Source: Nitrospirota bacterium
Lineage (GTDB): Bacteria; Nitrospirota; UBA9217
Reading direction: 5' to 3'
Length of the DNA stretch: 64,000 bases
Assembly (NCBI GenBank): GCA_963749655.1
Contig: CAVVOB010000013.1
Location: forward strand, 128,001-192,000
The stretch's first letter is position 1, and each line of letters opens with the position of its first letter. Both the position numbers and the translations under genes were made by a program. Of this stretch, positions 9,347-29,854 are shown one piece after another. The notes under the pieces were generated by a model. The model made no database searches, was not told where the DNA came from, and was given only the letters and a program-made list of their open reading frames with translations.

Positions 9347-11197
9347 ATGAACAAAAATAAAATTATTCTCCTTCCAACTTTACTGTTGAGTATCATTCTC
9401 GTTTATTCAACTTATGGAGAGGCTCAGAGTACTGAAAGCCTGCCCCAGACAAAAAGTGAGAATGGCCGCTGGGGACTTATTGATCATAGCGGAAAATTTA
9501 TTCTTGAGCCAAAGTATGAAGAAATCAGATTGTTCAGCAATTGGATCGACAACGGCAGGGTGTGGATTAAAACAAACAATAAATGGGGCTTATTTGACCT
9601 TAAGGGAAAAATCATCGTCCCACCCACGTATGATAATGTTTCCAGTATCCAGGCTAATTATGACTATGCAGAGATTACACTGGCAGGCAATCACGGCCTT
9701 ATCACTCAAACGGGCAAGATTCTTGTGGAACTGCAATATTCTTCCTTACGCGTATTCGACGATGGCATGATAGAGGTTCGGACGCATGACGGCAAAAGAG
9801 GTTTTATTAATCAACAGGGTAAGATTATCGCTGCTCCTGTTTACGATCTGGTTCTGGATTATCAAAACCATATTAAGAGAGTGCAAAAGAACCAGCGATG
9901 GGGGTTGATCAAGGATGACGGACGCATCATTGTTCCCACCCTCTATTCGGCAATATCGGAACCGGTAGACAATGTTTCGCGCGTCAACATGAGCGGTAAG
10001 TGCGACTGGGAGGGTTATTGTGAGGGCGGGAAATGGGGTCTGATTGACGTAAAGGGGACGACCATCCTTGAACCCAAATACAATTACATAGACGATTTTC
10101 ATGACGGGCTCGCGACCGTTGTGATAAACGGCAAGTGGGGCTACTTGAATACCAGGGGCAATCTCGCAATAGCTGCAAAATTCGATGCAGCAAATGATTT
10201 CGATAATGGACACGCATCGGTCACCTATCGCGACGAAGCGGGTTACATTGACAGGAGCGGGACCTTTGTCAGGAGCTTTAACGAGAACCACTACGTCGGC
10301 TCAATCGATAACAGGATCGGCTTCTACATGTACTTAACGATGAAAGCAGGCGCTGTTTCAGGGCGATACTTCTATTTAAATCAAAAACGACCGATCACAG
10401 TACAGGGTAAAATCAATCCTGACGGATCGTTCGATTTGGAAGAGAAGTATGAGGGCAAGATCAGCGGAAAATTTCAAGGTACCTTCTCTGCAGCCTTTGA
10501 CAAGGCCGGCGGCGAATGGTTCGCGCCAAAGGGGAAAAAGAAATTACCATTCATTCTGCAGCAGGTGTCCCGGTTTACCGGCATGAACACATTTCGGAAT
10601 GTTCACGGTTTTCTTTATTTTTACCTTGAAAACCCGGAACTCCAGAAGACGGTCAATGCAATGCTCAGCAAGATCACGAAGGGAACTTCGCGTTTTCTTA
10701 TTCAGAGTAAGAACGATTTGGACAACATGGGCTGGCTGCTCGGGACCGAAGAAGAGTCATCGATCAATTCATCCGAATATAACGCAGACTATAAATCAAA
10801 TACGCTGATCAGCATCCATTACACGGATTATATGGAGGGAGGAGCTCACCCGAACACAGCGTACGCTTCGTTAAACCTGCGGTTTAATAATGGCCGGGTC
10901 TATGACATTTCCCTCGATGATCTCTTCCGGCAGGATGCAAATTACCTGCAGGTGATAATGGGTTACTGTGCAAGTAATTTAAAGGAACAAGGGGCCAGTG
11001 ACGCTATAGTAGGCCATATCCCCGCCTTGTCTGAAAAGCTCGACGTCTTTAATATTGAATCCTCAGGGATTAAATTTTCTTTTGCACCCTATCAAGTTGG
11101 TTCATATGCCGAGGGGTCTTATTTTGTTTTAGTTCCGTATAACGTCTTAAAAGGACTGATCAGGCTTGACGGGCCGCTTAAGGATGTCATCAAATAA
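9347..11197 (+). CDS. Secreted WG-repeat protein with C-terminal RsiV/DUF3298-like domain
   Basis: Signal peptide and repeated (K/R)WG(L/Y)I(D/N)xxG units. C-terminus has GGAHPN...SLDDLF...FAPYQVGSYAEG. Visibly more AT-rich than its neighbours. Confidence 0.82.
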   Translation: MNKNKIILLPTLLLSIILVYSTYGEAQSTESLPQTKSENGRWGLIDHSGKFILEPKYEEIRLFSNWIDNGRVWIKTNNKWGLFDLKGKIIVPPTYDNVSSIQANYDYAEITLAGNHGLITQTGKILVELQYSSLRVFDDGMIEVRTHDGKRGFINQQGKIIAAPVYDLVLDYQNHIKRVQKNQRWGLIKDDGRIIVPTLYSAISEPVDNVSRVNMSGKCDWEGYCEGGKWGLIDVKGTTILEPKYNYIDDFHDGLATVVINGKWGYLNTRGNLAIAAKFDAANDFDNGHASVTYRDEAGYIDRSGTFVRSFNENHYVGSIDNRIGFYMYLTMKAGAVSGRYFYLNQKRPITVQGKINPDGSFDLEEKYEGKISGKFQGTFSAAFDKAGGEWFAPKGKKKLPFILQQVSRFTGMNTFRNVHGFLYFYLENPELQKTVNAMLSKITKGTSRFLIQSKNDLDNMGWLLGTEEESSINSSEYNADYKSNTLISIHYTDYMEGGAHPNTAYASLNLRFNNGRVYDISLDDLFRQDANYLQVIMGYCASNLKEQGASDAIVGHIPALSEKLDVFNIESSGIKFSFAPYQVGSYAEGSYFVLVPYNVLKGLIRLDGPLKDVIK

Positions 11198-11328
11198 TGA
11201 TTGCCAGAGACGCAGGCGGGCACGCTGTGTGTGCGTTTCGTGCGTTAAAAGTCGGCAATTTCAACAAAAAGACGGTAGGTGCCTACTACCTGGTAGTTTT
11301 TTTAATCTGAATTTTTCAGGAGGAATCC

Positions 11329-11826
11329 ATGCAAAAAATAGTCATCCTGCTTGTTCCATTTTTGTTTGTCTCGTGTGTTCCGGCACCCCAGTCGGTAAGC
11401 GAGTTTCGTGATGCTATGCAGACCCACCCGTCGATGATGAAAGAAGAATCCCATACAGTTAGTCGAAATCTTTCCGTTGTCGTAAAGGATTTAGAGCGCA
11501 AATCGAAGGAATGTTTACAGTTTGGTTATGAATCGACCACCCGAGCCGGCGCTGCTTCGAGAAGTAACACCGTTCTCTACCATCCCCGCGTTCGAATGAG
11601 CGGGAAAGCCAAGGCTGAAATGTTCATTCAGGAGGAACATATTCCTGCAGCGGTAGGGTCTCCCAAAGGAGGAGCGTATGTATTCCTTACGGATATGAAG
11701 CAGGTATCTTCCTCCAAAACGCAAATGACCATATACAGTCCTTCATTCCCTACATGGCAGCCGATTATTGATGCAGTCAAGGGGTGGAGTGAGGGGAAAA
11801 ACATCAAGTGTCCCGATTCGCCCTGA
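11329..11826 (+). CDS. Putative lipoprotein
   Basis: AGGAGG RBS and lipobox FVSC. Confidence 0.75.
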   Translation: MQKIVILLVPFLFVSCVPAPQSVSEFRDAMQTHPSMMKEESHTVSRNLSVVVKDLERKSKECLQFGYESTTRAGAASRSNTVLYHPRVRMSGKAKAEMFIQEEHIPAAVGSPKGGAYVFLTDMKQVSSSKTQMTIYSPSFPTWQPIIDAVKGWSEGKNIKCPDSP

Positions 11827-23270: not shown

Positions 23271-24701
23271 CTACCTGATGATATCCGCCGTGAAGGAATA
23301 GAGCTGCGCGTCTTTCCAGGCGTCCTTGGGCAGGCCTGCCTTGATCGAGACCTGCTCAAGGAACGTCGGCACGTCCCAGTGATATTCCTCGGCAACCTGG
23401 GGGAGGAGGATGCCGCTGTTCCATCCCTTTACCAGGTAGAGTCCGTGCGTCCCGATCCTGATGTTTTTAACGTCCAACAGGAGTTCGAGGGGAGAAAGGA
23501 CTGTGACCTCGACGGACATATCGTTCAGCTCCTGAGGCGTCATGGGTTCGAATCGCGGGTCGCGGGAGCAGGCCGAGACTGCGTTCGTGATGACGGACTT
23601 GAACAGCGGCATGACGGGTTCGATGTTCCCGATGCAGCCCCGCAGGCGCCCGCTGCGATTGATCGTGACAAAGACGGCCCCGTTGGCCGCGAGACGGGCG
23701 TCTTTCGGTTCGAACTGCGGCGTCTTGCCGTGCTTCACATAGCTTTCTATCGTTCGTCTGGCAAGAGCGAGAAGCTCCCGTTGCTGTTCTGCTGTGAGCG
23801 CGCTTTTGTACAGGCCCAGCGCCGCATATCCCACGACCCGGGTACGGTCATTTGTCACATCGCCCGAGTTCGCCGCGTTGAACAGCACGCCGTTGGTTGC
23901 GCCGAGCCTCCGGGCCGCTGCCATGGCAACGAGCACCGCGTACCCGCCGCACATTTCACCCTCGCTGCTCCGGAGGCGCTGCTCCAGGTCTTCCACCGAC
24001 ATCCTGGCCACGGCGTTGGTGACCGTTCCGTCCATTTTTTTCGCTGTTCTGTAATCGTGATAATGGGAGAGGTCCGTGCTCGCGATGATGATCGTCTTCG
24101 GATTTTCAGCGACAATCGACGTAAGGCTGCGGATCAGGGAGTCGAAGGATTCCTGTGTGGGGCGGCCGATCAGGACAGGCACTATGGTGAAGCGCGTCAG
24201 CGTGCGCTGAAGGAACGGCAGCTGCACCTCGATCGAGTGCTCCTTTTCAAAGGCCGAGGTTGACGCCGTGACGCCTGCTTTCGGGTCGATGAGCTTTTTC
24301 GCGAGCCGGTCGTTGATCTTGATCGTTCCCAAAGGGGTCCGCATGCCGCCTGACGCATACACGACAGCGCCGTTCACCTCGGCGTAATGGCTCGGTCCGA
24401 TCAGTATAACCGTATCGACCGGCCGTTCCTGCAGATGGCGGTACGCATAGGCCGCGACCTGTCCGGAATACTGGTACCCGGCATGGGGCGCGATCAGGGC
24501 GATGAGCTTCCCTTCCACGGGGGTCGTCTTTGCGCGGGACAGGAAATCGTCGACCATGGCGGTAAGCGCCTGTTTGTCCGCGGGATAGAAGGCCCCGGCA
24601 ACCGCGGGCTCCTTGACGGTCCCGCCGGCGCCCACAAGCAGGACGGTCAGGACCAGGAGAATGGACAGCAATGCAGCTCCGACAAGGTGCTTACGCTTCA
24701 T
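23271..24701 (-). CDS. amrB: AmmeMemoRadiSam protein B (Memo) fused to protein A (AMMECR1), with N-terminal signal or anchor
   Basis: PAVAGAFYP, PHAGYQYSG, EHSIEVQLPFLQ, STDLSHY and MCG, then GAVFVTI..LRGCIG, DPRF, LLPQVA and KAGL. Confidence 0.92.
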   Translation of the reverse strand: MKRKHLVGAALLSILLVLTVLLVGAGGTVKEPAVAGAFYPADKQALTAMVDDFLSRAKTTPVEGKLIALIAPHAGYQYSGQVAAYAYRHLQERPVDTVILIGPSHYAEVNGAVVYASGGMRTPLGTIKINDRLAKKLIDPKAGVTASTSAFEKEHSIEVQLPFLQRTLTRFTIVPVLIGRPTQESFDSLIRSLTSIVAENPKTIIIASTDLSHYHDYRTAKKMDGTVTNAVARMSVEDLEQRLRSSEGEMCGGYAVLVAMAAARRLGATNGVLFNAANSGDVTNDRTRVVGYAALGLYKSALTAEQQRELLALARRTIESYVKHGKTPQFEPKDARLAANGAVFVTINRSGRLRGCIGNIEPVMPLFKSVITNAVSACSRDPRFEPMTPQELNDMSVEVTVLSPLELLLDVKNIRIGTHGLYLVKGWNSGILLPQVAEEYHWDVPTFLEQVSIKAGLPKDAWKDAQLYSFTADIIR

Positions 24702-24828
24702 CTTTTCTCCTCCAGAACCTGGCGGGCTTGTCCTGCTCCTTGGATTTTATCTTTTTTGCAAGAAAACTGATGATGCCGCCTGCGAGGAAGAATCCGAGGA
24801 AGCTCCTTCGTGATATGGTGTCCTTCAT
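24691..24828 (-). CDS. 45-aa twin-arginine (Tat) signal micro-protein, absent from the ORF track
   Basis: Hand translation gives MKDTISRRSFLGFFLAGGIISFLAKKIKSKEQDKPARFWRRKDEA*. GAGG RBS, and the ORF overlaps the amrB start by 11 nt. Confidence 0.75.
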   Translation of the reverse strand: MKDTISRRSFLGFFLAGGIISFLAKKIKSKEQDKPARFWRRKDEA

Positions 24829-24850
24829 TGTTCGCCTCTTTTCAAGGGCC

Positions 24851-24922
24851 GTCATTCCGGGCTTGACCCGGAATCCAGTGGCTTTTCGCTAAGTCCTGGA
24901 TTCCTGCTTCCGCAGGAATGAC
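24851..24922. repeat. GTCATTCC-type palindromic repeat, copy 2
   Basis: gtcattccgggcttgacccggaatccag...ctggattcctgcttccgcaggaatgac. Confidence 0.82.
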
Positions 24923-25006
24923 GAGCGATAGGGGTATATTGTTAACCCTCAATTCTCCGCAGCTTACTGCGGAGAGGTATTAGTAGCTTGCAACAAAGCC
25001 CCTTCT

Positions 25007-25981
25007 TCATCCCCACACTCCCGCGATCTTCATGCCGCAGAACCTGCATTTTCCCGACGCGATGTTGTTCTGCTTCACGAAATATCCGGTCCGCTCGATG
25101 ACGATCTTTTTGCAGCGCGGGCAGAGGGTGTTCTCTGCGTCGCTCCGCACATTGCCGATATAGACAAAGCGGAGTCCGGCGTCGAGGGCGGTTGTTCTGG
25201 CGTTTTTCAGCGTCTCGACGGGCGTGGGCGGCAGGTCCTTCAGCTTGTAACCCGGGAAGAACCGGGAAAAGTGAAGCGGCACGTCATTCCCGAGGTTCTT
25301 CACGATCCATTTGCACATGTCGCGGACCTGCGACAGGTTATCGTTCAACGTGGGGATGACCAGGTTCGTGACCTCGAGCCACACCTTGTCCTCCCTGAGC
25401 TGTACGAGGGAGTCCAGAACGGGTCTGAGCCTGCCGCCGCATATTCTTGCGTAGAAGTCCTCGGTAAAGGCCTTCAGGTCCACGTCGGCGGCATCGAGAT
25501 ACCTGGCGAGTTCGTGGAGCGGTTTTTTGTTGATGTACCCGCAGGAATGCATCGTGTTGTTGATGCCGTATTGGCGGGCGATTACCGCGGTGTCGTACAT
25601 GTATTCGTAGAACACCGTGGGTTCGGTGTAGGTGTAGGTGATTGTCCTGCACTGGTAGAACAGCGCCTGGCGGACGACATCCGCGGGAGGAAGGTCCCGG
25701 GAATCCACGTCCTCGGGGTTCGCCTGCGAGATCTCCCAGTTCTGGCAGAACTTGCAGCCCAGGACGCATCCTGCCGTTGCGATCGAAAAGGCGGTAGTTC
25801 CGGGATGGAAATGGAAGAAAGGCTTTTTTTCGATGGGGTCGATGGCCACGGCGCAGGGCTTCCCGTACACAAGGCTGTACAGTGTCCCGCCCTTGTTTAT
25901 CCTGGTCCTGCACCCGCCGATCTGAAATTCCTCGAGCACGCATTCGGTGGGGCAGAGTTCGCATTGGACTGTTTTCGCCAT
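25007..25981 (-). CDS. amrS: AmmeMemoRadiSam radical SAM enzyme, short at the N-terminus
   Basis: CELCPTEC, DPIEKKP, GCVLGCKFCQNWEISQ, YTYTEP, LHFSRFFP, YIGNV and a C-terminal Zn ribbon. Confidence 0.93.
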   Translation of the reverse strand: MAKTVQCELCPTECVLEEFQIGGCRTRINKGGTLYSLVYGKPCAVAIDPIEKKPFFHFHPGTTAFSIATAGCVLGCKFCQNWEISQANPEDVDSRDLPPADVVRQALFYQCRTITYTYTEPTVFYEYMYDTAVIARQYGINNTMHSCGYINKKPLHELARYLDAADVDLKAFTEDFYARICGGRLRPVLDSLVQLREDKVWLEVTNLVIPTLNDNLSQVRDMCKWIVKNLGNDVPLHFSRFFPGYKLKDLPPTPVETLKNARTTALDAGLRFVYIGNVRSDAENTLCPRCKKIVIERTGYFVKQNNIASGKCRFCGMKIAGVWG

Positions 25982-25997
25982 TAGTCAGTTAAATGTT

Positions 25998-26090
25998 TTG
26001 CCGCAGAGTTCTCAGAGGACACGGGAAAAAGCTTAAGAATCATTATTCCTGGAGTTTTCCTCTGTGCTCTCAATGTCCTCTGTGGCTAAA
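25998..26090. repeat. Palindromic repeat with 9-bp tandem arms
   Basis: gccgcagagttctcagaggacacgg ... ctctgtgctctcaatgtcctctgtggc. Confidence 0.72.
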
Positions 26091-26125
26091 GTTTTTCGGC
26101 TTGTCCTGAGCAGGATATGCTGGGG

Positions 26126-26329
26126 TTACTGCTTCTCCTTCCAGTAAGAGCCTTGATGCAGGCTGAGCCCCTTTTTCGAGATCGTGCTTTCGTAGTAGAC
26201 GCGGCGTTTCAGATAATTCTCGATGTCAGGTATCACCGTTTCCCGGAGCACGGAAAAGGCCAGAATCGCAATGACGAGCCCTGCGCTCGCGGAAAGCAAT
26301 ACCTTGAATTTTTGTTTGTCCTTCTCCAT
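26126..26329 (-). CDS. 67-aa single-TM micro-protein upstream of amrS
   Basis: MEKDKQKFKVLLSASAGLVIAILAFSVLRE...KKGLSLHQGSYWKEKQ*. Confidence 0.65.
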   Translation of the reverse strand: MEKDKQKFKVLLSASAGLVIAILAFSVLRETVIPDIENYLKRRVYYESTISKKGLSLHQGSYWKEKQ

Positions 26330-26405
26330 AGGCAGCAAATTAAATCTTCTCTCTCTGGTGGTTCTTTGTCAAGCCGCATTTACCGGCCTGCAGGGCCTTT
26401 TGCTG

Positions 26406-26464
26406 GTTCAGGCTTGCAGCCTGAACCAAATGTTAAGGTTTGGTTCAATCTTCAAGATTGAACC
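26406..26464. repeat. Two tandem related hairpins (GGTTCA...TGAACC)
   Basis: ggttcaggcttgcagcctgaacc and ggttcaatcttcaagattgaacc. Confidence 0.55.
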
Positions 26465-26544
26465 AGCGTGAGGCTTCGTGTGAGTTTTATGAATGCATCA
26501 ATCTTGAGTGAATCTGGCTAGTCCAAACTTGCCGCATAGTGCAA

Positions 26545-27771
26545 TCATCGACCTGCAGGGCCGTGCTGAAAACAGCGGTTGCAGCGGATGCACTCGGAAA
26601 CAGCCGGATTCGGCTTGTTCGCCACGGGACAATCGGCGCCGCTCGGATATCCCCTTGCCTCTCTTGACAAGGCGCCGGTCAGCGCGGCCACAGGACAAAG
26701 ATACCGGCACCAGAACCGTTCGATGCGCAGGTTCGCGGCAAGGGCAATAACGACGAGGGCCCATGTTAACGCTGTACCGTTGAAGGAAAAGAGCGTCACG
26801 TAGGCCTCGTAGTTCCCGTAGTCCGCGCTGCTGCCTGTGAACGCCAGAACAACGGCGAGGCCGAGCAGGCCATATTTCAAGGTTCTCGCACGGCCGTCCA
26901 GTTCGGGCGGGATTTCCCATTTGCGGAAAGGCAGCCTGCTTATGAACTCGGACAAAGCGCCGAAGGGGCAGAGCCAGCCGCAGTAGAACCTTCCTGCCAC
27001 GATGATAGACGCGAAGGTGCTGATAACGAGCACATACCACAGCATCGACGACGACGGCCTCAGGAGGACAAGGTTAAAGACGTGAATGACGGAGAAGGGG
27101 GCGGAAAGATATAAACCGACGATGATGACGGAAGAGGCCAGGCTGAGGTCCCTCAGCGTCTGAAACTTCCGCGATCGCCGCGTAAGAACATATCCCGCTG
27201 CAGCGGCGATGAACAGGCCTGCGTACCACAGCCAGGCGGTTTCGCGGCGGCCTGTGCCGGCCGGTCCGGAACTGATGCCGAGGACGTCCCTTGCCGCGGT
27301 GCGCGAGGACTCCCTGACCGTATCAGCCAGGGCTTTAACGCTCACCGTGGCGCGGGTGATCCCATCGATGTCGCGGTCCACCTCGAAGGGATCGGTCACG
27401 CTCTTCCCGATGAATTGGCTGAGATAGGACGGAAGCTCGAGATAGCGGACGTAATTCTTCGTCTCCCGGTGCTCGATGATCCTGAGGCCGGCGATCATTC
27501 CCTCGCGGCTCAGGACGACCATGACCTTGATCGGACCTGCATATCCCCTGATCTGCGGCACGATGTCATGGGAGTTGAAGGCGACAGCTCCATCCCCGGA
27601 GCGATAGACCGGTGGGCTGCCCTGCTTCTCTGCAAAACGCGAGTCAGGAGCAGCGATCTTGAGAATACTGCGTTCATCGGGCGCAGGCGCCATGAGGCGG
27701 GACCGGACAAGGTGGCCCGTGATCAGCGAACAGAGGGCAAGGGCTGTAAGGAGGATTCTAATTTTTTTCAT
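26545..27771 (-). CDS. NosR/NirI-like membrane protein with FMN-binding and 4Fe-4S-binding domains
   Basis: GYAGPI, DIDGITRATVS flavinylation-like motif, two CxxxCP (CGWLCP, CRYLCP) and C-terminal CIRCNRC. Confidence 0.82.
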   Translation of the reverse strand: MKKIRILLTALALCSLITGHLVRSRLMAPAPDERSILKIAAPDSRFAEKQGSPPVYRSGDGAVAFNSHDIVPQIRGYAGPIKVMVVLSREGMIAGLRIIEHRETKNYVRYLELPSYLSQFIGKSVTDPFEVDRDIDGITRATVSVKALADTVRESSRTAARDVLGISSGPAGTGRRETAWLWYAGLFIAAAAGYVLTRRSRKFQTLRDLSLASSVIIVGLYLSAPFSVIHVFNLVLLRPSSSMLWYVLVISTFASIIVAGRFYCGWLCPFGALSEFISRLPFRKWEIPPELDGRARTLKYGLLGLAVVLAFTGSSADYGNYEAYVTLFSFNGTALTWALVVIALAANLRIERFWCRYLCPVAALTGALSREARGYPSGADCPVANKPNPAVSECIRCNRCFQHGPAGR

Positions 27772-29854
27772 GGCCCAGGACCATCAGCAGCACCAGCGAA
27801 GACGCTTTCAGCGCAATCAGCGACAGGATCGCATTCCCGACTCCGAGAAGGGGCACGAAGAGTATGGATGCGGAGAGGGCTCCGAGAACGGCGCCTCCCA
27901 GGTCCACGGCATAGAGCCGCCCCGCATGCTCTCCCGGCTTCGCGCCTCCGATCAACCGGCTTATGAGCGCGAACTGCATCCCGGCCATGGCGCCGCAGAG
28001 GAGGACCATGACGTAATAGAACAGCTCGAGGGTGAAGAAAAGCGGCGCCACAAGAAGCAGCAGCAGTGAGGCCACGTCCAACGCCTGGACCCACGACTGC
28101 GATCGTTTCAGGAACCGGGCCCCGGAAGCGCCGGCCGCCGTGCCTGCCATGAAGAGGGCAGAGAGGATGCCGATCCGTTCGTAGACATAGCCGAACGACG
28201 CCTGATACATAAGCAGGACAGCCACGTTGAACGCCATGGCGAAGTAGCCGGTGGTGAAAAGGCTGTAATAGAACGTACGCTGTTTTCTCCAGAACAGGAC
28301 AACAGCCGTCAGGAGCAGTGCGGCAAAGGCCGTCAAGACGGGAACTTCGCCTGCGCCGACGATGCTGTTCAGGAACGCGCCGCCGTGCGTCTCCGTCCAG
28401 AGCATGAGGTTGTACAGGTAGGCGACCGGCCTGCGGTCCCTGTTGAGCGTGTCGACCGCGCCGAGCCGTGCAGCGACCATGTCCGTTTTCATCGGGTCGA
28501 AGATGTCCTTGAAGATAAGGGGGTAGAAGTATTCGGTCTGCACGCCCCGTGCGGAAAATCGCATCGCAAGCTCGTCAGGGTCCGCCTTCAGGGGCCTGTC
28601 CGAAGCGTACATGCCTCCGTATTCCTCGGAAGAGAGCGCCACGGTCGGGAAGACCGCCTTCAGCGAGCGGTAAATGGACCCGTTGGCGGCCTGCAGACGC
28701 CGTCCGATGTAGCCGTGGGACGCGGGCAGGGTCAGGGCGAGGACGCCGCCGGGGTTCAGGATCGCGCGGGCCTCGCGGAAAAATTCCACGGTATAGAACC
28801 TGTTGAGATTGGCGGTCGAAGGCTCGGGCAGGTTCAGGATCACGATATCGTACCGTGCTTTTGCAGCCGACCTGACAAAGGACCGCGCGTCCTGCACATT
28901 GACCTTCAGCCGTTTGTCGCCCAGCCGTTCCCGGTCCTCGCGGGTCAGGATGCTGAAGCAGAGGTCGATCATTTTGGGGTCGATCTCGACGAAGTCGACC
29001 TCCACCGCCGGATACTTCAGCAGCTCCCGCGCAACGGCCGCGGACCCGCCGATCAGCAGCACCCGGCCGGGCGACTCATGGAGCGACATCGGCACGTGGG
29101 CCCGCAGTTCCTCGGTCTGCTCATCGGGATAGGAGAACGCGAACCTGCCTGAGGTGAAAAGATTGAGCTGGTCGTCGGAATCGTAGAGCGCGAGCTCTCC
29201 ATACTTCGATTCCACGCGCTGAACCAGATCGAGGTCCTGTTCGGGCGCGTTCTCGACGATCGTCGTGGCCGCAACATGAAAAAGCAGGGGGATGACCAGG
29301 AACAGGAACCTCCGTTTTTTCTTCAGCAGCACGATCGTGAGCAGGATGTTCACGAAGCTGACTGCGGCGACAAGAGCGAAGGCATTGACGTTTCCGGCGA
29401 ACAGCACGGTAAAGAACAGGCCTCCGAGAAAAGAGCCCGCTGCCTCCAGGCCGTAGGTCCTGGCGGTGTCGCCTTTCAGGAAAGCCACGGCCAGCGGAAA
29501 CTGGGTGCCGATCATGAAGCAGACAGGGGCGAGGGCAAGAACAGTGGAGAGCACCGTGGTAGTCAGGGGGACCGTTTCGCCTGCTACCAGGCCGAAGACC
29601 GGGTGAATGAGGCTGATGAACAAGACGGAGGTTTGGGCCAGGAGAGCAACGCCGAAGAAGGAATACTCAAAAGCGTTTCTGTACCGGAACCTCCGGCCGA
29701 AGATGCTGCCGAGTCCGACGGCAAGGAGCCAGACCGCAAGGGTGATGCCGATGTCGAGCTCGTTCCCGGAGAAGACGGTCAAAAGCTGGCGCAAGGCGAT
29801 GATCTGCACCAGGATCGAGGTGAACCCCATTCCGAGAACAGCAAGGATGTTCAT
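27758..29854 (-). CDS. Fused membrane / spermidine-synthase-like SAM-dependent transferase
   Basis: TM bundles flank ESKYG, VLLIGG, FVEIDP, DARSF, YDIVILNLPEP and NRFYTVEFF. Confidence 0.85.
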   Translation of the reverse strand: MNILAVLGMGFTSILVQIIALRQLLTVFSGNELDIGITLAVWLLAVGLGSIFGRRFRYRNAFEYSFFGVALLAQTSVLFISLIHPVFGLVAGETVPLTTTVLSTVLALAPVCFMIGTQFPLAVAFLKGDTARTYGLEAAGSFLGGLFFTVLFAGNVNAFALVAAVSFVNILLTIVLLKKKRRFLFLVIPLLFHVAATTIVENAPEQDLDLVQRVESKYGELALYDSDDQLNLFTSGRFAFSYPDEQTEELRAHVPMSLHESPGRVLLIGGSAAVARELLKYPAVEVDFVEIDPKMIDLCFSILTREDRERLGDKRLKVNVQDARSFVRSAAKARYDIVILNLPEPSTANLNRFYTVEFFREARAILNPGGVLALTLPASHGYIGRRLQAANGSIYRSLKAVFPTVALSSEEYGGMYASDRPLKADPDELAMRFSARGVQTEYFYPLIFKDIFDPMKTDMVAARLGAVDTLNRDRRPVAYLYNLMLWTETHGGAFLNSIVGAGEVPVLTAFAALLLTAVVLFWRKQRTFYYSLFTTGYFAMAFNVAVLLMYQASFGYVYERIGILSALFMAGTAAGASGARFLKRSQSWVQALDVASLLLLLVAPLFFTLELFYYVMVLLCGAMAGMQFALISRLIGGAKPGEHAGRLYAVDLGGAVLGALSASILFVPLLGVGNAILSLIALKASSLVLLMVLGHEKN

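What the first reader, a model, noticed from the sequence alone, without database searches (positions are those of the whole stretch)
24691..24828. Unannotated stand-alone Tat peptide that looks like the detached N-terminus of AmrS
Seen: a 45-aa ORF with RBS, SRRSFL, a hydrophobic core and a short tail ending KPARFWRRK, coupled to amrB and carrying no passenger domain. From my knowledge of the family, AmrS proteins normally begin with an EA(x)(F/Y)(Y/W) segment just before VxCxLCP, sometimes behind a Tat-like leader. The neighbouring AmrS starts abruptly at MAKTVQCELCP. Inference: the peptide supplies the missing strand in trans and carries the folded Fe-S enzyme to the Tat system by hitch-hiking.
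Basis: partly seen in the sequence, partly recalled or inferred. Interest (0 to 1): 0.82.

Follow-up and report, generated by a model that had tools for sequence, protein, structure and literature searches.

The report
Split-off Tat leader of AmrS
A conserved 45-residue protein carries the twin-arginine export leader and the first beta-strand that the neighbouring radical SAM enzyme AmrS has lost, and it probably docks onto that enzyme to take it to, or across, the cell membrane.

Summary
The ORF is real. It lies at 24691-24828 on the minus strand. It has a Shine-Dalgarno site, an SRRSFL motif and a hydrophobic core, and its tail overlaps the amrBA start by 11 nt. It is conserved. All 23 related loci that have an N-terminally short AmrS and downstream DNA carry such an ORF between amrS and amrBA. 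RR and A-x-F are invariant, with synonymous codon variation. A profile search found 101 small predicted proteins of this kind in public data.

The 54 closest relatives with an intact AmrS N-terminus carry the same two elements fused to the enzyme: a leader (RR, KR or plain hydrophobic) followed by an EAxF(Y/W) strand just before VxCxLCP. The micro-ORF is therefore the detached N-terminus of AmrS, encoded downstream.

A complex model places tail residues 33-43 against AmrS residues 3-9 and 32-36 (ipSAE 0.92, best control 0.01). This recreates the hairpin seen in a fused-form model.

Strand donation in trans is well supported by computation. Tat-dependent hitch-hiking is plausible but untested. 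The h-region looks like a membrane anchor, the Tat HMMs score below their cut-offs, and tatC reads in several frames in this assembly.

I rate it a new variant of a known kind.

The parts
24691..24828 (-). Micro-ORF of 45 aa: a twin-arginine leader, a hydrophobic anchor, a basic linker and an AxFW docking strand.
   Evidence: Searches give the sequence. Searches show conservation. Searches found 101 small proteins in the representative library.
24835..24839 (-). AGAGG Shine-Dalgarno-like site, six nt upstream of the micro-ORF ATG.
   Evidence: Orthologues mostly have GGAG- or GGGG-type sites at the same place.
24796..24813 (-). Codons for S-R-R-S-F-L (residues 6-11), the twin-arginine motif.
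   Evidence: R7 and R8 are invariant in 16 of 16 sequences and F10 in at least 90%. The Arg codons vary synonymously. 100 of the 102 library hits contain RR.
24757..24801 (-). Hydrophobic core (residues 10-24), followed by KK.
   Evidence: The best 13-residue Kyte-Doolittle mean has a median of 2.13 in 17 micro-ORFs, against 1.41 in 16 fused RR leaders.
24700..24732 (-). Docking tail (residues 33-43, DKPARFWRRKD). It is equivalent to the EAxF(Y/W) strand of fused AmrS.
   Evidence: These are the interface residues of the complex model. One search aligns them to fused N-termini. A36, F38 and W39 are invariant.
24707..24713 (-). GGAGGAG inside the W-R-R codons. It serves as the Shine-Dalgarno site of amrBA, so this stretch has two uses.
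   Evidence: In 17 of 17 sequences TGG is followed by AGR or AAR codons, 7-13 nt before the amrBA start.
25007..25981 (-). amrS, an N-terminally short radical SAM enzyme of the AmmeMemoRadiSam system (324 aa).
   Evidence: TIGR04337 scores 375.6 bits against a cut-off of 220, over profile positions 11-333. A TGA lies two codons upstream of the ATG.
23271..24701 (-). amrB-amrA fusion (476 aa) with an N-terminal signal-like hydrophobic segment. It is translationally coupled to the micro-ORF.
   Evidence: TIGR04336 plus TIGR04335, and Pfam Memo plus AMMECR1. A Cys at the end of the h-region is present in 15 of 15 orthologues but is Gly in the window.
24848..24932 (.). Dispersed palindromic repeat inserted in the spacer between amrS and the micro-ORF.
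   Evidence: 24 matches in the genome, 13 of them spanning at least 55 nt elsewhere. The spacer RNA fold has a z-score of -5.55. Orthologous spacers can be as short as 1-2 nt.
26545..27771 (-). NosR/NapH-like membrane protein with an FMN-binding domain and 4Fe-4S motifs. It is a possible electron conduit and belongs to the conserved neighbourhood.
   Evidence: It is found next to amrS in 7 of 80 loci.
27758..29854 (-). Polytopic membrane protein with a spermidine-synthase-like (SAM-family) domain. It is a conserved neighbour of leader-bearing AmrS.
   Evidence: It is found within the fetched flanks in 30 of 80 loci across several phyla.

Best explanation
The micro-ORF encodes the detached N-terminus of AmrS: a twin-arginine leader and membrane anchor, a variable basic linker, and the first strand of AmrS's N-terminal beta-hairpin. 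The gene was split at the hairpin turn, and the N-terminal piece now sits downstream of amrS, translationally coupled to amrBA.

Proposed mechanism:
- After AmrS has folded and received its clusters in the cytoplasm, the peptide's A-x-F-W tail pairs with AmrS strand 3-9 and packs on residues 32-36. Homology supports this step and a model agrees with it.
- The RR leader is then recognised by TatBC, and the pair is moved to the outer face of the membrane. The uncleaved hydrophobic leader remains there as a signal-anchor, beside the exported AmrB-AmrA fusion. This step is inferred.
- Putting the signal on a separate 40-50 aa peptide would make targeting post-translational and dependent on a folded cargo. 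This is inferred.
For: 1. It is a real protein.
- It is present in 23 of the 23 short-AmrS loci that have downstream DNA.
- RR, A, F and W are invariant in 16 of 16 sequences.
- Invariant Arg, Ala and Phe residues use different synonymous codons.
- dN/dS is below 1 in all 34 computable pairs.
- A profile search gave 102 library hits at E<=1e-3. Of these, 101 are at most 110 aa, 100 contain RR and 97 have the A-x-aromatic-aromatic tail.

2. It is a split gene.
- All 54 fused relatives (51-60% identical) carry a leader plus the strand before VxCxLCP. The leaders are 25 RR, 10 KR, 18 hydrophobic without RR, and 1 cut by a contig end.
- None of the 54 has a credible micro-ORF downstream. Three regex hits had no hydrophobic stretch.
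- The micro-ORFs align to that N-terminal part and stop where short AmrS starts.

3. It docks on AmrS.
- Complex prediction gave a score of 0.92 in each of 3 runs, with the best of 3 controls at 0.01. That mark was reached by 58 of 80 solved complexes and 2 of 110 mismatched pairs. The counts hold only roughly, because my own alignments were used.
- The runs agree in at least 96% of contacts, and the partner pLDDT is at least 49.
- The interface is peptide residues 33-43 with AmrS residues 3-9, 15, 27, 30, 32-36, 39, 125-127, 129, 151 and 153-154.
- In the fused-form model, the equivalent residues form a hairpin (strands 45-48 and 52-55, pLDDT about 96) in the same register.
- No AmrS relative is in the PDB by sequence. 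The closest fold is PFL-AE at 18% identity.

4. Export is plausible.
- RR never becomes K, whereas other basic positions interchange K and R.
- KK follows the h-region.
- AmrBA orthologues have a lipoprotein-like signal with Cys in 15 of 15.
- A NosR-like electron-transfer membrane protein and a SAM-family membrane protein are conserved neighbours.
- tatA has 6 hits in this genome.
- tatC is intact in 13 of 15 relatives and in 5 of 5 genomes that hold split loci.
Against: - No experiment or expression data exist.
- Halves of a split gene tend to pass complex prediction simply because they resemble the intact chain. The model therefore shows likeness to the fused fold, not measured binding. The peptide's own pLDDT is only about 50.
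- Pfam TAT_signal scores 13.8 bits against a cut-off of 22.7, and matches 2 of 16 family members at E<=10. TIGR01409 matches 1 of 16.
- No A-x-A cleavage site is seen.
- The h-region (median KD 2.13) is far more hydrophobic than the fused RR leaders (1.41). That could favour Sec/YidC insertion or simple anchoring.
- The C-terminal flank is more basic than the N-terminal one. By the positive-inside rule this favours a cytoplasmic tail.
- The W-R/K codons double as the amrBA Shine-Dalgarno site, so part of the tail's conservation may act at the DNA level.
- tatC of this assembly is split over at least three frames.
- A radical SAM enzyme outside the cytoplasm would need SAM and a low-potential reductant there. 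I found no precedent in the literature searches.
- 18 fused relatives carry non-RR, Sec-like leaders, which sits badly with obligatory Tat export of this enzyme.
Confidence: 0.55

Rival explanations
1. Membrane tether without export. The peptide inserts as a small anchor with its basic tail in the cytoplasm and holds AmrS at the inner face of the membrane. From there AmrS acts on, or receives electrons from, membrane partners while keeping access to cytoplasmic SAM and reductants.
For: - The h-region is as hydrophobic as a transmembrane helix (median KD 2.13).
- There is no cleavage site.
- The tail is more basic than the N-terminal flank.
- Radical SAM chemistry needs cytoplasmic SAM and a reductant (established knowledge).
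- The Tat HMMs score below their cut-offs.
- The docking model fits this reading equally well.
Against: - RR is invariant, while other basic positions swap K and R.
- 25 fused relatives have RR leaders, several followed by A-x-A-like sites.
- The partner AmrBA has an export or lipoprotein-type signal in 15 of 15 orthologues. It would then sit on the other side of the membrane from AmrS.
Confidence: 0.22
2. The peptide is a small Tat-inserted or exported subunit of AmrB-AmrA rather than of AmrS. Its place and its coupling to amrBA reflect that partnership.
For: - Its stop overlaps the amrBA start by 4 to 19 nt in 14 of 17 loci, and the other three start 2-14 nt after it.
- It always lies directly upstream of amrBA.
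Against: - It aligns to the N-terminus of fused AmrS, not to AmrBA.
- It occurs only where AmrS lacks that segment: 23 of 23 short-AmrS loci against 0 credible cases in 54 fused loci.
- AmrBA has its own signal.
- The modelled interface is with AmrS. AmrBA itself was not modelled.
Confidence: 0.08
3. The ORF is a decaying remnant or a coupling leader. Its translation only serves to deliver ribosomes to amrBA, and the peptide has no function of its own.
For: - The W-R/K codons form the amrBA Shine-Dalgarno site in 17 of 17 sequences.
- No family model exists.
- No homologue was found by the word-index searches.
Against: - RR and A-x-F are invariant far from the Shine-Dalgarno site and show synonymous variation.
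- dN/dS has a median of 0.26.
- The ORF is open in 23 of 23 loci across at least four phyla.
- 101 small-protein clusters in the library keep both motifs.
Confidence: 0.04

Closest known systems
Fused long-form AmrS (TIGR04337 members with an N-terminal RR, KR or hydrophobic leader), seen here in loci L071-L132
   Same: It has the same leader, then an EAxF(Y/W) strand, then VxCxLCP. The core is 51-60% identical, and amrBA and the SAM-family membrane protein are the same neighbours.
   Different: There the leader and strand are covalently part of the enzyme, and the RR leaders are less hydrophobic. Here they form a separate 45-aa protein encoded downstream of the enzyme.
Tat hitch-hiker export of signal-less subunits, such as [NiFe] hydrogenase large subunits carried by HyaA/HybO (Rodrigue et al. 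1999, cited in passages of PMC10924467 that I read)
   Same: A cofactor-containing, signal-less protein would leave the cytoplasm bound to a partner that carries the RR signal, and the carrier stays membrane-anchored.
   Different: Known carriers are full redox subunits with their own cofactors. This carrier has only about 10 docking residues and no domain of its own. Export is not shown here.
[quoted passage not shown]
   Same: It is a small protein whose main known role is to supply a twin-arginine signal to, and stabilise, a signal-less Fe-S/FAD catalytic subunit.
   Different: The gamma subunit is 168 aa, with a 47-aa cleaved signal and a folded five-helix mature part of 121 aa. It is not a fragment of its cargo. 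The micro-protein is 39-50 aa in most loci (up to 75 with linker insertions), appears uncleaved, and is a piece of the cargo's own fold.
Uncleaved Tat signal-anchors and Tat-integrated tail-anchored proteins. The Rieske protein example is recalled. Tail-anchored examples come from PMC10924467 (abstract and passages).
   Same: A hydrophobic RR-bearing helix would stay in the membrane after Tat transport.
   Different: In those cases the anchor is covalently joined to the transported domain.
Engineered hitch-hiker selections, in which a Tat signal fused to a bait exports a prey (PMC4273604, title and abstract in the search listing only)
   Same: A Tat signal on a short binding partner would carry a signal-less folded protein.
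   Different: That system is man-made. This would be a natural counterpart.
TIGR02811 'formate dehydrogenase region TAT target' small proteins (description recalled, not from a call)
   Same: They are stand-alone proteins of under 70 aa with an RR signal and a short conserved C-terminal motif, next to a redox enzyme.
   Different: There is no sequence match: NCBIfam scans of the window ORF and of 16 family members gave no such hit. The tail motif and the enzyme context also differ.

Membership tests
Twin-arginine (Tat) signal peptide | Consecutive RR in an (S/T)-R-R-x-F-L type motif ahead of the hydrophobic region | tested here: met
   The window has SRRSFL. RR is invariant in 16 of 16 sequences and F10 is present in at least 90%. 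RR is present in all 23 loci and in 100 of the 102 library hits.
Twin-arginine (Tat) signal peptide | Score above the curated cut-off of the family models (PF10518, TIGR01409) | tested here: not met
   PF10518 gives 13.8 bits against a cut-off of 22.7 (E=0.058) and matches 2 of 16 members at E<=10. TIGR01409 matches 1 of 16 and not the window ORF. Fused leaders also match weakly: 9 of 24 at E<=1.
Twin-arginine (Tat) signal peptide | Moderately hydrophobic h-region and an A-x-A signal-peptidase site | tested here: not met
   The h-region has a median KD of 2.13, against 1.41 in fused RR leaders. By eye there is no A-x-A site before the KK. It looks like a signal-anchor rather than a cleaved signal.
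Twin-arginine (Tat) signal peptide | A Tat translocase is present in the organism | tested here: inconclusive
   tatA has 6 hits over the cut-off. tatC gives three partial hits below the cut-off, spread over at least three frames, in an assembly that is 86.6% complete. tatC is intact in 13 of 15 relatives and in 5 of 5 other genomes with split loci.
Twin-arginine (Tat) signal peptide | Export depends on RR and on TatC | not testable with these tools
   This needs a genetic or biochemical assay.
AmmeMemoRadiSam radical SAM enzyme (TIGR04337), N-terminal segment | Homology of the ORF to the N-terminal leader plus strand of intact family members | tested here: met
   Alignment A4 lines up RR-x-F-L and (K/R)EA-x-F(W/Y) with seven fused N-termini and with the cytoplasmic paralogue. 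The ORFs end before VxCxLCP.
AmmeMemoRadiSam radical SAM enzyme (TIGR04337), N-terminal segment | The adjacent AmrS lacks exactly that segment, and the split and fused forms are mutually exclusive | tested here: met
   AmrS matches the profile from position 11. A micro-ORF is present in 23 of 23 short-AmrS loci and in 0 credible cases among 54 fused loci. One odd locus, L116, has neither.
AmmeMemoRadiSam system | Co-located A (AMMECR1), B (Memo) and radical SAM genes | tested here: met
   TIGR04335, TIGR04336 and TIGR04337 all score above their cut-offs in adjacent genes.
Tat hitch-hiker carrier | The carrier has the signal, the cargo has none, and the two form a complex | tested here: inconclusive
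   The first two points are met by sequence. Complex formation is only modelled: 0.92 against a best control of 0.01. A split gene may pass by likeness to the intact fold.
Tat hitch-hiker carrier | The cargo is co-translocated | not testable with these tools
   This needs fractionation or reporter assays.
TIGR02811 small Tat proteins of formate dehydrogenase regions | Match to the family model | tested here: not met
   There is no hit in NCBIfam at E<=0.01 for the window ORF or at E<=10 for the 16 family members.

The most novel reading that the evidence does not exclude
This family would be a natural 'detachable signal peptide': a protein of about 40 residues whose only parts are a Tat signal-anchor and one beta-strand borrowed from its cargo. 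Through it, a folded radical SAM enzyme would be exported and pinned to the outer face of the membrane. There it would work with a lipoprotein Memo-AMMECR1 fusion, a NosR-like electron conduit and a SAM-family membrane protein. That would make it the first extracytoplasmic radical SAM system.
Probability: 0.4. Interest if true: 0.88.

Novelty: new variant of a known kind. Interest (0 to 1): 0.72.

Why it matters
Tat hitch-hiking is known only for carriers that are full subunits or folded proteins. A carrier reduced to a signal plus a single complementing strand would show the minimum needed to take a folded protein through Tat. It would also give a natural template for split-signal export tools, and it would link export directly to correct folding of the cargo's N-terminal sheet.

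The result also shows that a whole subfamily of AmrS carries export-type leaders. All 54 fused relatives examined carry a fused leader; all 23 split loci with downstream DNA carry it in trans, and one further locus (L116) has neither. This subfamily sits next to an AmrB-AmrA fusion with a lipoprotein-type signal. That points to an envelope-located version of the AmmeMemoRadiSam system, whose function is still unknown and whose Memo and AMMECR1 components are conserved up to humans.

A radical SAM enzyme working outside the cytoplasm would be unprecedented in the papers I could search. It would raise testable questions about how SAM and electrons are supplied there.

Finally, this is a clean example of a gene split at a hairpin turn with the N-terminal piece relocated downstream.

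Tried and rejected
- **Word-index protein searches.** Searches with the 45-aa ORF found nothing, either among near-length proteins or among longer ones. These are weak negatives for a short query. The later profile search did find the family.
- **Relatives of the window's genome.** A six-frame search of 40 relatives with the ORF gave only chance-level hits (E>=0.0138). Those relatives also lack this amrS paralogue: their best hit is 50% identical, of the type found on contig C29.
- **Expression.** The look-up of sequencing runs listed no RNA holder, and all 24 rows hold only 0.04 of the words. Read laying was therefore not used, and nothing can be said about expression.
- **Solved structures.** No sequence relative of AmrS is in the PDB.
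- **Frameshift fusion of the micro-ORF to AmrBA.** Considered and rejected. AmrBA has its own start codon, Shine-Dalgarno site and signal segment in every locus.
- **Micro-ORF as a lost N-terminus of AmrBA.** Considered and rejected. AmrBA in fused loci starts with its own signal and has no EAxFW segment.
- **Single versus multiple origin of the split.** The quick tree needs 2 changes of the split label but cannot exclude 1. Three loci (L095, L108, L120) were left out because my motif search missed them. L116 and L122 were labelled 'fused' although they are neither.
- **Literature.** Searches for AmmeMemoRadiSam; for AMMECR1 with radical SAM and Memo; for radical SAM with twin-arginine; and for a four-term query (radical SAM, twin-arginine, periplasmic, hitchhiker; any three) found no paper on Tat-leader AmrS or on this peptide. 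Only listings and abstracts were seen, except for passages of PMC10924467, PMC13673990 and PMC6719666. Supplements were not opened.
- **Not used.** The second structure prediction, the metagenome scan and the protein atlas were not used.
Full report
**What is in the window**

On the minus strand, 24828-24691 encodes a 45-aa protein. An AGAGG site lies six nt before its ATG. The protein has three parts:
- SRRSFL at residues 6-11.
- A hydrophobic stretch at residues 10-24, followed by KK.
- A basic tail ending DKPARFWRRKDEA.

The ATG of the next gene (24701) lies inside the ORF, giving an 11-nt overlap. The W-R-R codons spell GGAGGAG, which is that gene's Shine-Dalgarno site. The next gene is an AmrB-AmrA fusion that matches TIGR04336 and TIGR04335 (Pfam Memo and AMMECR1) and has an N-terminal signal-like segment.

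The upstream gene (25981-25007) is AmrS. It scores 375.6 bits on TIGR04337 (cut-off 220), but the match begins only at profile position 11. AmrS starts five residues before its first Cys, and a TGA lies two codons upstream of its ATG.

The 178-nt spacer between amrS and the ORF holds a palindromic repeat that is dispersed in the genome (24 matches) and strongly structured (z = -5.55).

**Is the ORF real?**

Early searches found nothing:
- The word-index protein searches gave no homologue.
- Forty relatives of the window's genome gave only chance-level hits.
- Those relatives also lack this amrS paralogue. They hold only the type found on contig C29 of the same genome, a 351-aa AmrS with an intact N-terminal segment next to archease and RtcB.

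A scan of one genome per species with AmrS returned 80 loci. Eighteen of them, from Thermodesulfovibrionales/Nitrospirota MAGs, are 65-77% identical and all start as abruptly as the window's AmrS. Of these 18:
- L069 ends inside amrS, which leaves 17 with downstream DNA.
- All 17 have an equivalent ORF between amrS and amrBA. In L060 it is cut by the contig end, and in L058 it carries an in-frame insertion in the linker.

Evidence for selection on the protein:
- In the 16-sequence alignment, only R7, R8, A36, F38 and W39 are invariant. Other basic positions swap K and R.
- Invariant Arg, Ala and Phe residues use several synonymous codons.
- Of 120 sequence pairs, 34 gave an unsaturated dS, and all 34 have dN/dS below 1 (median 0.26).
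- The ORF's stop overlaps the amrBA start by 4-19 nt in 14 of 17 loci. In several loci its start follows the amrS stop within 1-2 nt.

A profile of 21 micro-ORFs was searched against 1.84 billion representative proteins. It found 102 hits at E<=1e-3:
- 101 are 34-104 aa long and match up to their C-terminus.
- 100 contain RR.
- 97 have the A-x-aromatic-aromatic tail. I read 38 of the sequences.

This is a genuine small-protein family, and neither Pfam nor NCBIfam has a model for it.

**What it is**

The remaining 62 loci are 51-60% identical and come from Omnitrophota, Thermodesulfobacteriota, Aminicenantes, Acidobacteriota and other phyla. They fall into three groups.

- 54 loci have a fused AmrS. 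Its N-terminus reads leader, then (K/R)EA-x-(F/Y)(Y/W)-x-K-L (or KLSPYF in one clade), then about 4 residues, then V-x-C-x-L-C-P. The leaders are 25 RR, 10 KR, 18 hydrophobic without RR, and 1 cut by a contig end.
- 6 loci (L077, L085, L086, L107, L111, L112) have a short AmrS. The named records are from Omnitrophota, Fermentibacterota and Planctomycetota; three records are unclassified. All six have an RR micro-ORF directly downstream, although L112 has a divergent tail.
- 2 loci fit neither pattern. L122 is a leaderless, cytoplasmic-type AmrS. L116 lacks both the segment and a micro-ORF.

Split and fused forms are therefore mutually exclusive. A micro-ORF is present in 23 of the 23 short-AmrS loci with downstream DNA, against 0 credible cases in the 54 fused loci. 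Three regex hits in fused loci had no hydrophobic stretch.

Aligned together, the micro-ORFs match the first 50-60 residues of the fused enzymes and stop where the short enzymes begin.

In a quick tree of the AmrS core, the split label needs two changes, and one change is not excluded. The Nitrospirota split clade has 100% support (the rows left out or mislabelled are listed under Tried and rejected).

It is encoded downstream of the enzyme. A tandem duplication followed by complementary loss would explain that position, but this is inference and no intermediate was seen.

**Does it still belong to the fold?**

- An AlphaFold2 model of a fused form (L100, 24-row alignment) has a mean pLDDT of 88.8. 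The leader is disordered (residues 11-34 below 50). The EAxFY segment and the x-V-x-C segment form a confident beta-hairpin, with strands 45-48 and 52-55 and a block pLDDT of 96.
- The complex job used the window's AmrS and the 45-aa peptide, each with its own alignment. It scored 0.92 in all three runs, against 0.01 for the best of three controls. That mark was reached by 58 of 80 solved complexes and 2 of 110 mismatched pairs, although the counts hold only roughly because my own alignments were used. The runs agree in at least 96% of contacts, and the partner pLDDT is at least 49.
- The interface is peptide residues 33-43 with AmrS residues 3-9, 15, 27, 30, 32-36, 39, 125-127, 129, 151 and 153-154. 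The tightest pairs (W39 with C7, F38 with E8 and L9) have the register of the fused hairpin.
- No AmrS relative is in the PDB by sequence, and the nearest fold is PFL-AE at 18% identity. Memory of a solved complex is therefore unlikely. A split gene can still score well merely because it resembles the intact chain, so this supports binding without demonstrating it.

**How it most likely works**

Points in favour of Tat hitch-hiking:
- The RR is strictly invariant.
- KK follows the h-region.
- The fused relatives have RR-type leaders.
- AmrBA orthologues carry a lipoprotein-like signal, with a Cys at the end of the h-region in 15 of 15. The window has Gly at that position.
- Two membrane proteins are conserved neighbours and could serve an enzyme outside the cytoplasm. 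One is a NosR/NapH-like protein with an FMN domain and Fe-S motifs, found in 7 of 80 loci. The other is a polytopic protein with a spermidine-synthase-like SAM-family domain, found in 30 of 80 loci across phyla.
- tatA is present, with 6 hits.
- tatC is intact in 13 of 15 relatives and in 5 of 5 other genomes with split loci.

Points against:
- The Tat HMMs score below their cut-offs.
- No cleavage site is visible.
- The h-region is as hydrophobic as a membrane anchor: median 2.13 against 1.41 for fused RR leaders.
- The tail is more basic than the N-terminal flank.
- Eighteen fused relatives have Sec-like leaders.
- tatC of this 86.6%-complete assembly is broken over at least three frames, which may be assembly indels.
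- No periplasmic radical SAM enzyme turned up in the literature searches.

I conclude that the peptide is a trans-acting signal-anchor plus strand donor. I put the full export reading at about 0.55, a cytoplasmic-face tether at about 0.2, and the other readings below 0.1 each.

**Comparison with known systems**

It would work like Tat hitch-hiking of hydrogenase subunits (passages of PMC10924467). It would also work like the dedicated 168-aa gamma 'hitchhiker protein' of FAD glucose dehydrogenase (passages of PMC6719666). It differs from both because the carrier has no domain of its own and is a fragment of the cargo's fold.

It is a member of the AmrS N-terminal segment by homology. It meets the RR motif test for a Tat signal, but not the curated score or the cleavage-site features. 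I therefore file it as a new variant of a known kind.

Noticed in passing
window 24848-24932 (spacer between amrS and the micro-ORF): A palindromic, MITE/REP-like repeat has 24 matches in the genome, 13 of them spanning at least 55 nt at 75-92% identity. It accounts for most of the 178-nt spacer, which is only 1-2 nt in some orthologous loci. The alternative upstream ATG (24855) lies inside it.
   Followed up: partly
G000 contig C18, about 11,000-11,800 (L134 1179-2036): tatC of this assembly reads in at least three frames. The C-terminal third is 87% identical to a congener's intact TatC. This could be assembly indels or a recent pseudogene. tatC is intact in 13 of 15 relatives.
   Followed up: partly
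window 27758-29854 and 26545-27771; loci L058-L131: A polytopic membrane protein with a spermidine-synthase-like domain is a neighbour of leader-bearing AmrS in 30 of 80 loci across phyla. A NosR/NapH-like protein with FMN and Fe-S motifs is a neighbour in 7 of 80. They may supply a SAM-related substrate and electrons to an envelope-located system.
   Followed up: partly
loci L071-L073, L075, L076, L081, L083, L092, L093, L095-L099, L109, L118, L130, L131: Eighteen fused AmrS, mostly from Omnitrophota, carry hydrophobic leaders without RR. Some have A-x-A-like sites and so look Sec-type. That is odd for an Fe-S enzyme.
   Followed up: no
L085 about 40-345 and 1387-1593: This locus has the usual RR micro-ORF downstream of amrS (69 aa). 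It also has a second ORF just upstream of amrS, with a transmembrane-like segment and a tail of the same strand motif (QEAGFYEV). This may be an in-place split of an older leader.
   Followed up: no
L058 5145-5372; protein P0053: Two family members carry a similar insertion of about 30 aa in the linker between the anchor and the docking strand, and the frame stays open. The linker tolerates large length changes.
   Followed up: no
window 24640-24701 (AmrBA N-terminus): The window's AmrB-AmrA fusion has Gly where 15 of 15 orthologues have the Cys that ends a lipoprotein-like signal. In this genome the protein may be a soluble or signal-anchored form instead of a lipoprotein.
   Followed up: partly
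window 24707-24713 and the equivalent sites in 16 loci: The Trp codon of the docking motif is always followed by AGR or AAR codons, forming the amrBA Shine-Dalgarno site. Split forms in Nitrospirota always have W here, where fused forms mostly have Y. This may reflect the dual use.
   Followed up: partly
G000 contig C29 (L002 1046-2511): A second, leaderless AmrS paralogue (351 aa, 48% identical) lies next to archease and RtcB rather than next to amrA and amrB. This is the copy shared with the genus relatives.
   Followed up: no
window 25982-26544: The intergenic region upstream of amrS is about 560 nt long. It contains inverted repeats and a 70-aa ORF (26126-26338). No clear Shine-Dalgarno site precedes the amrS ATG.
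   Followed up: no
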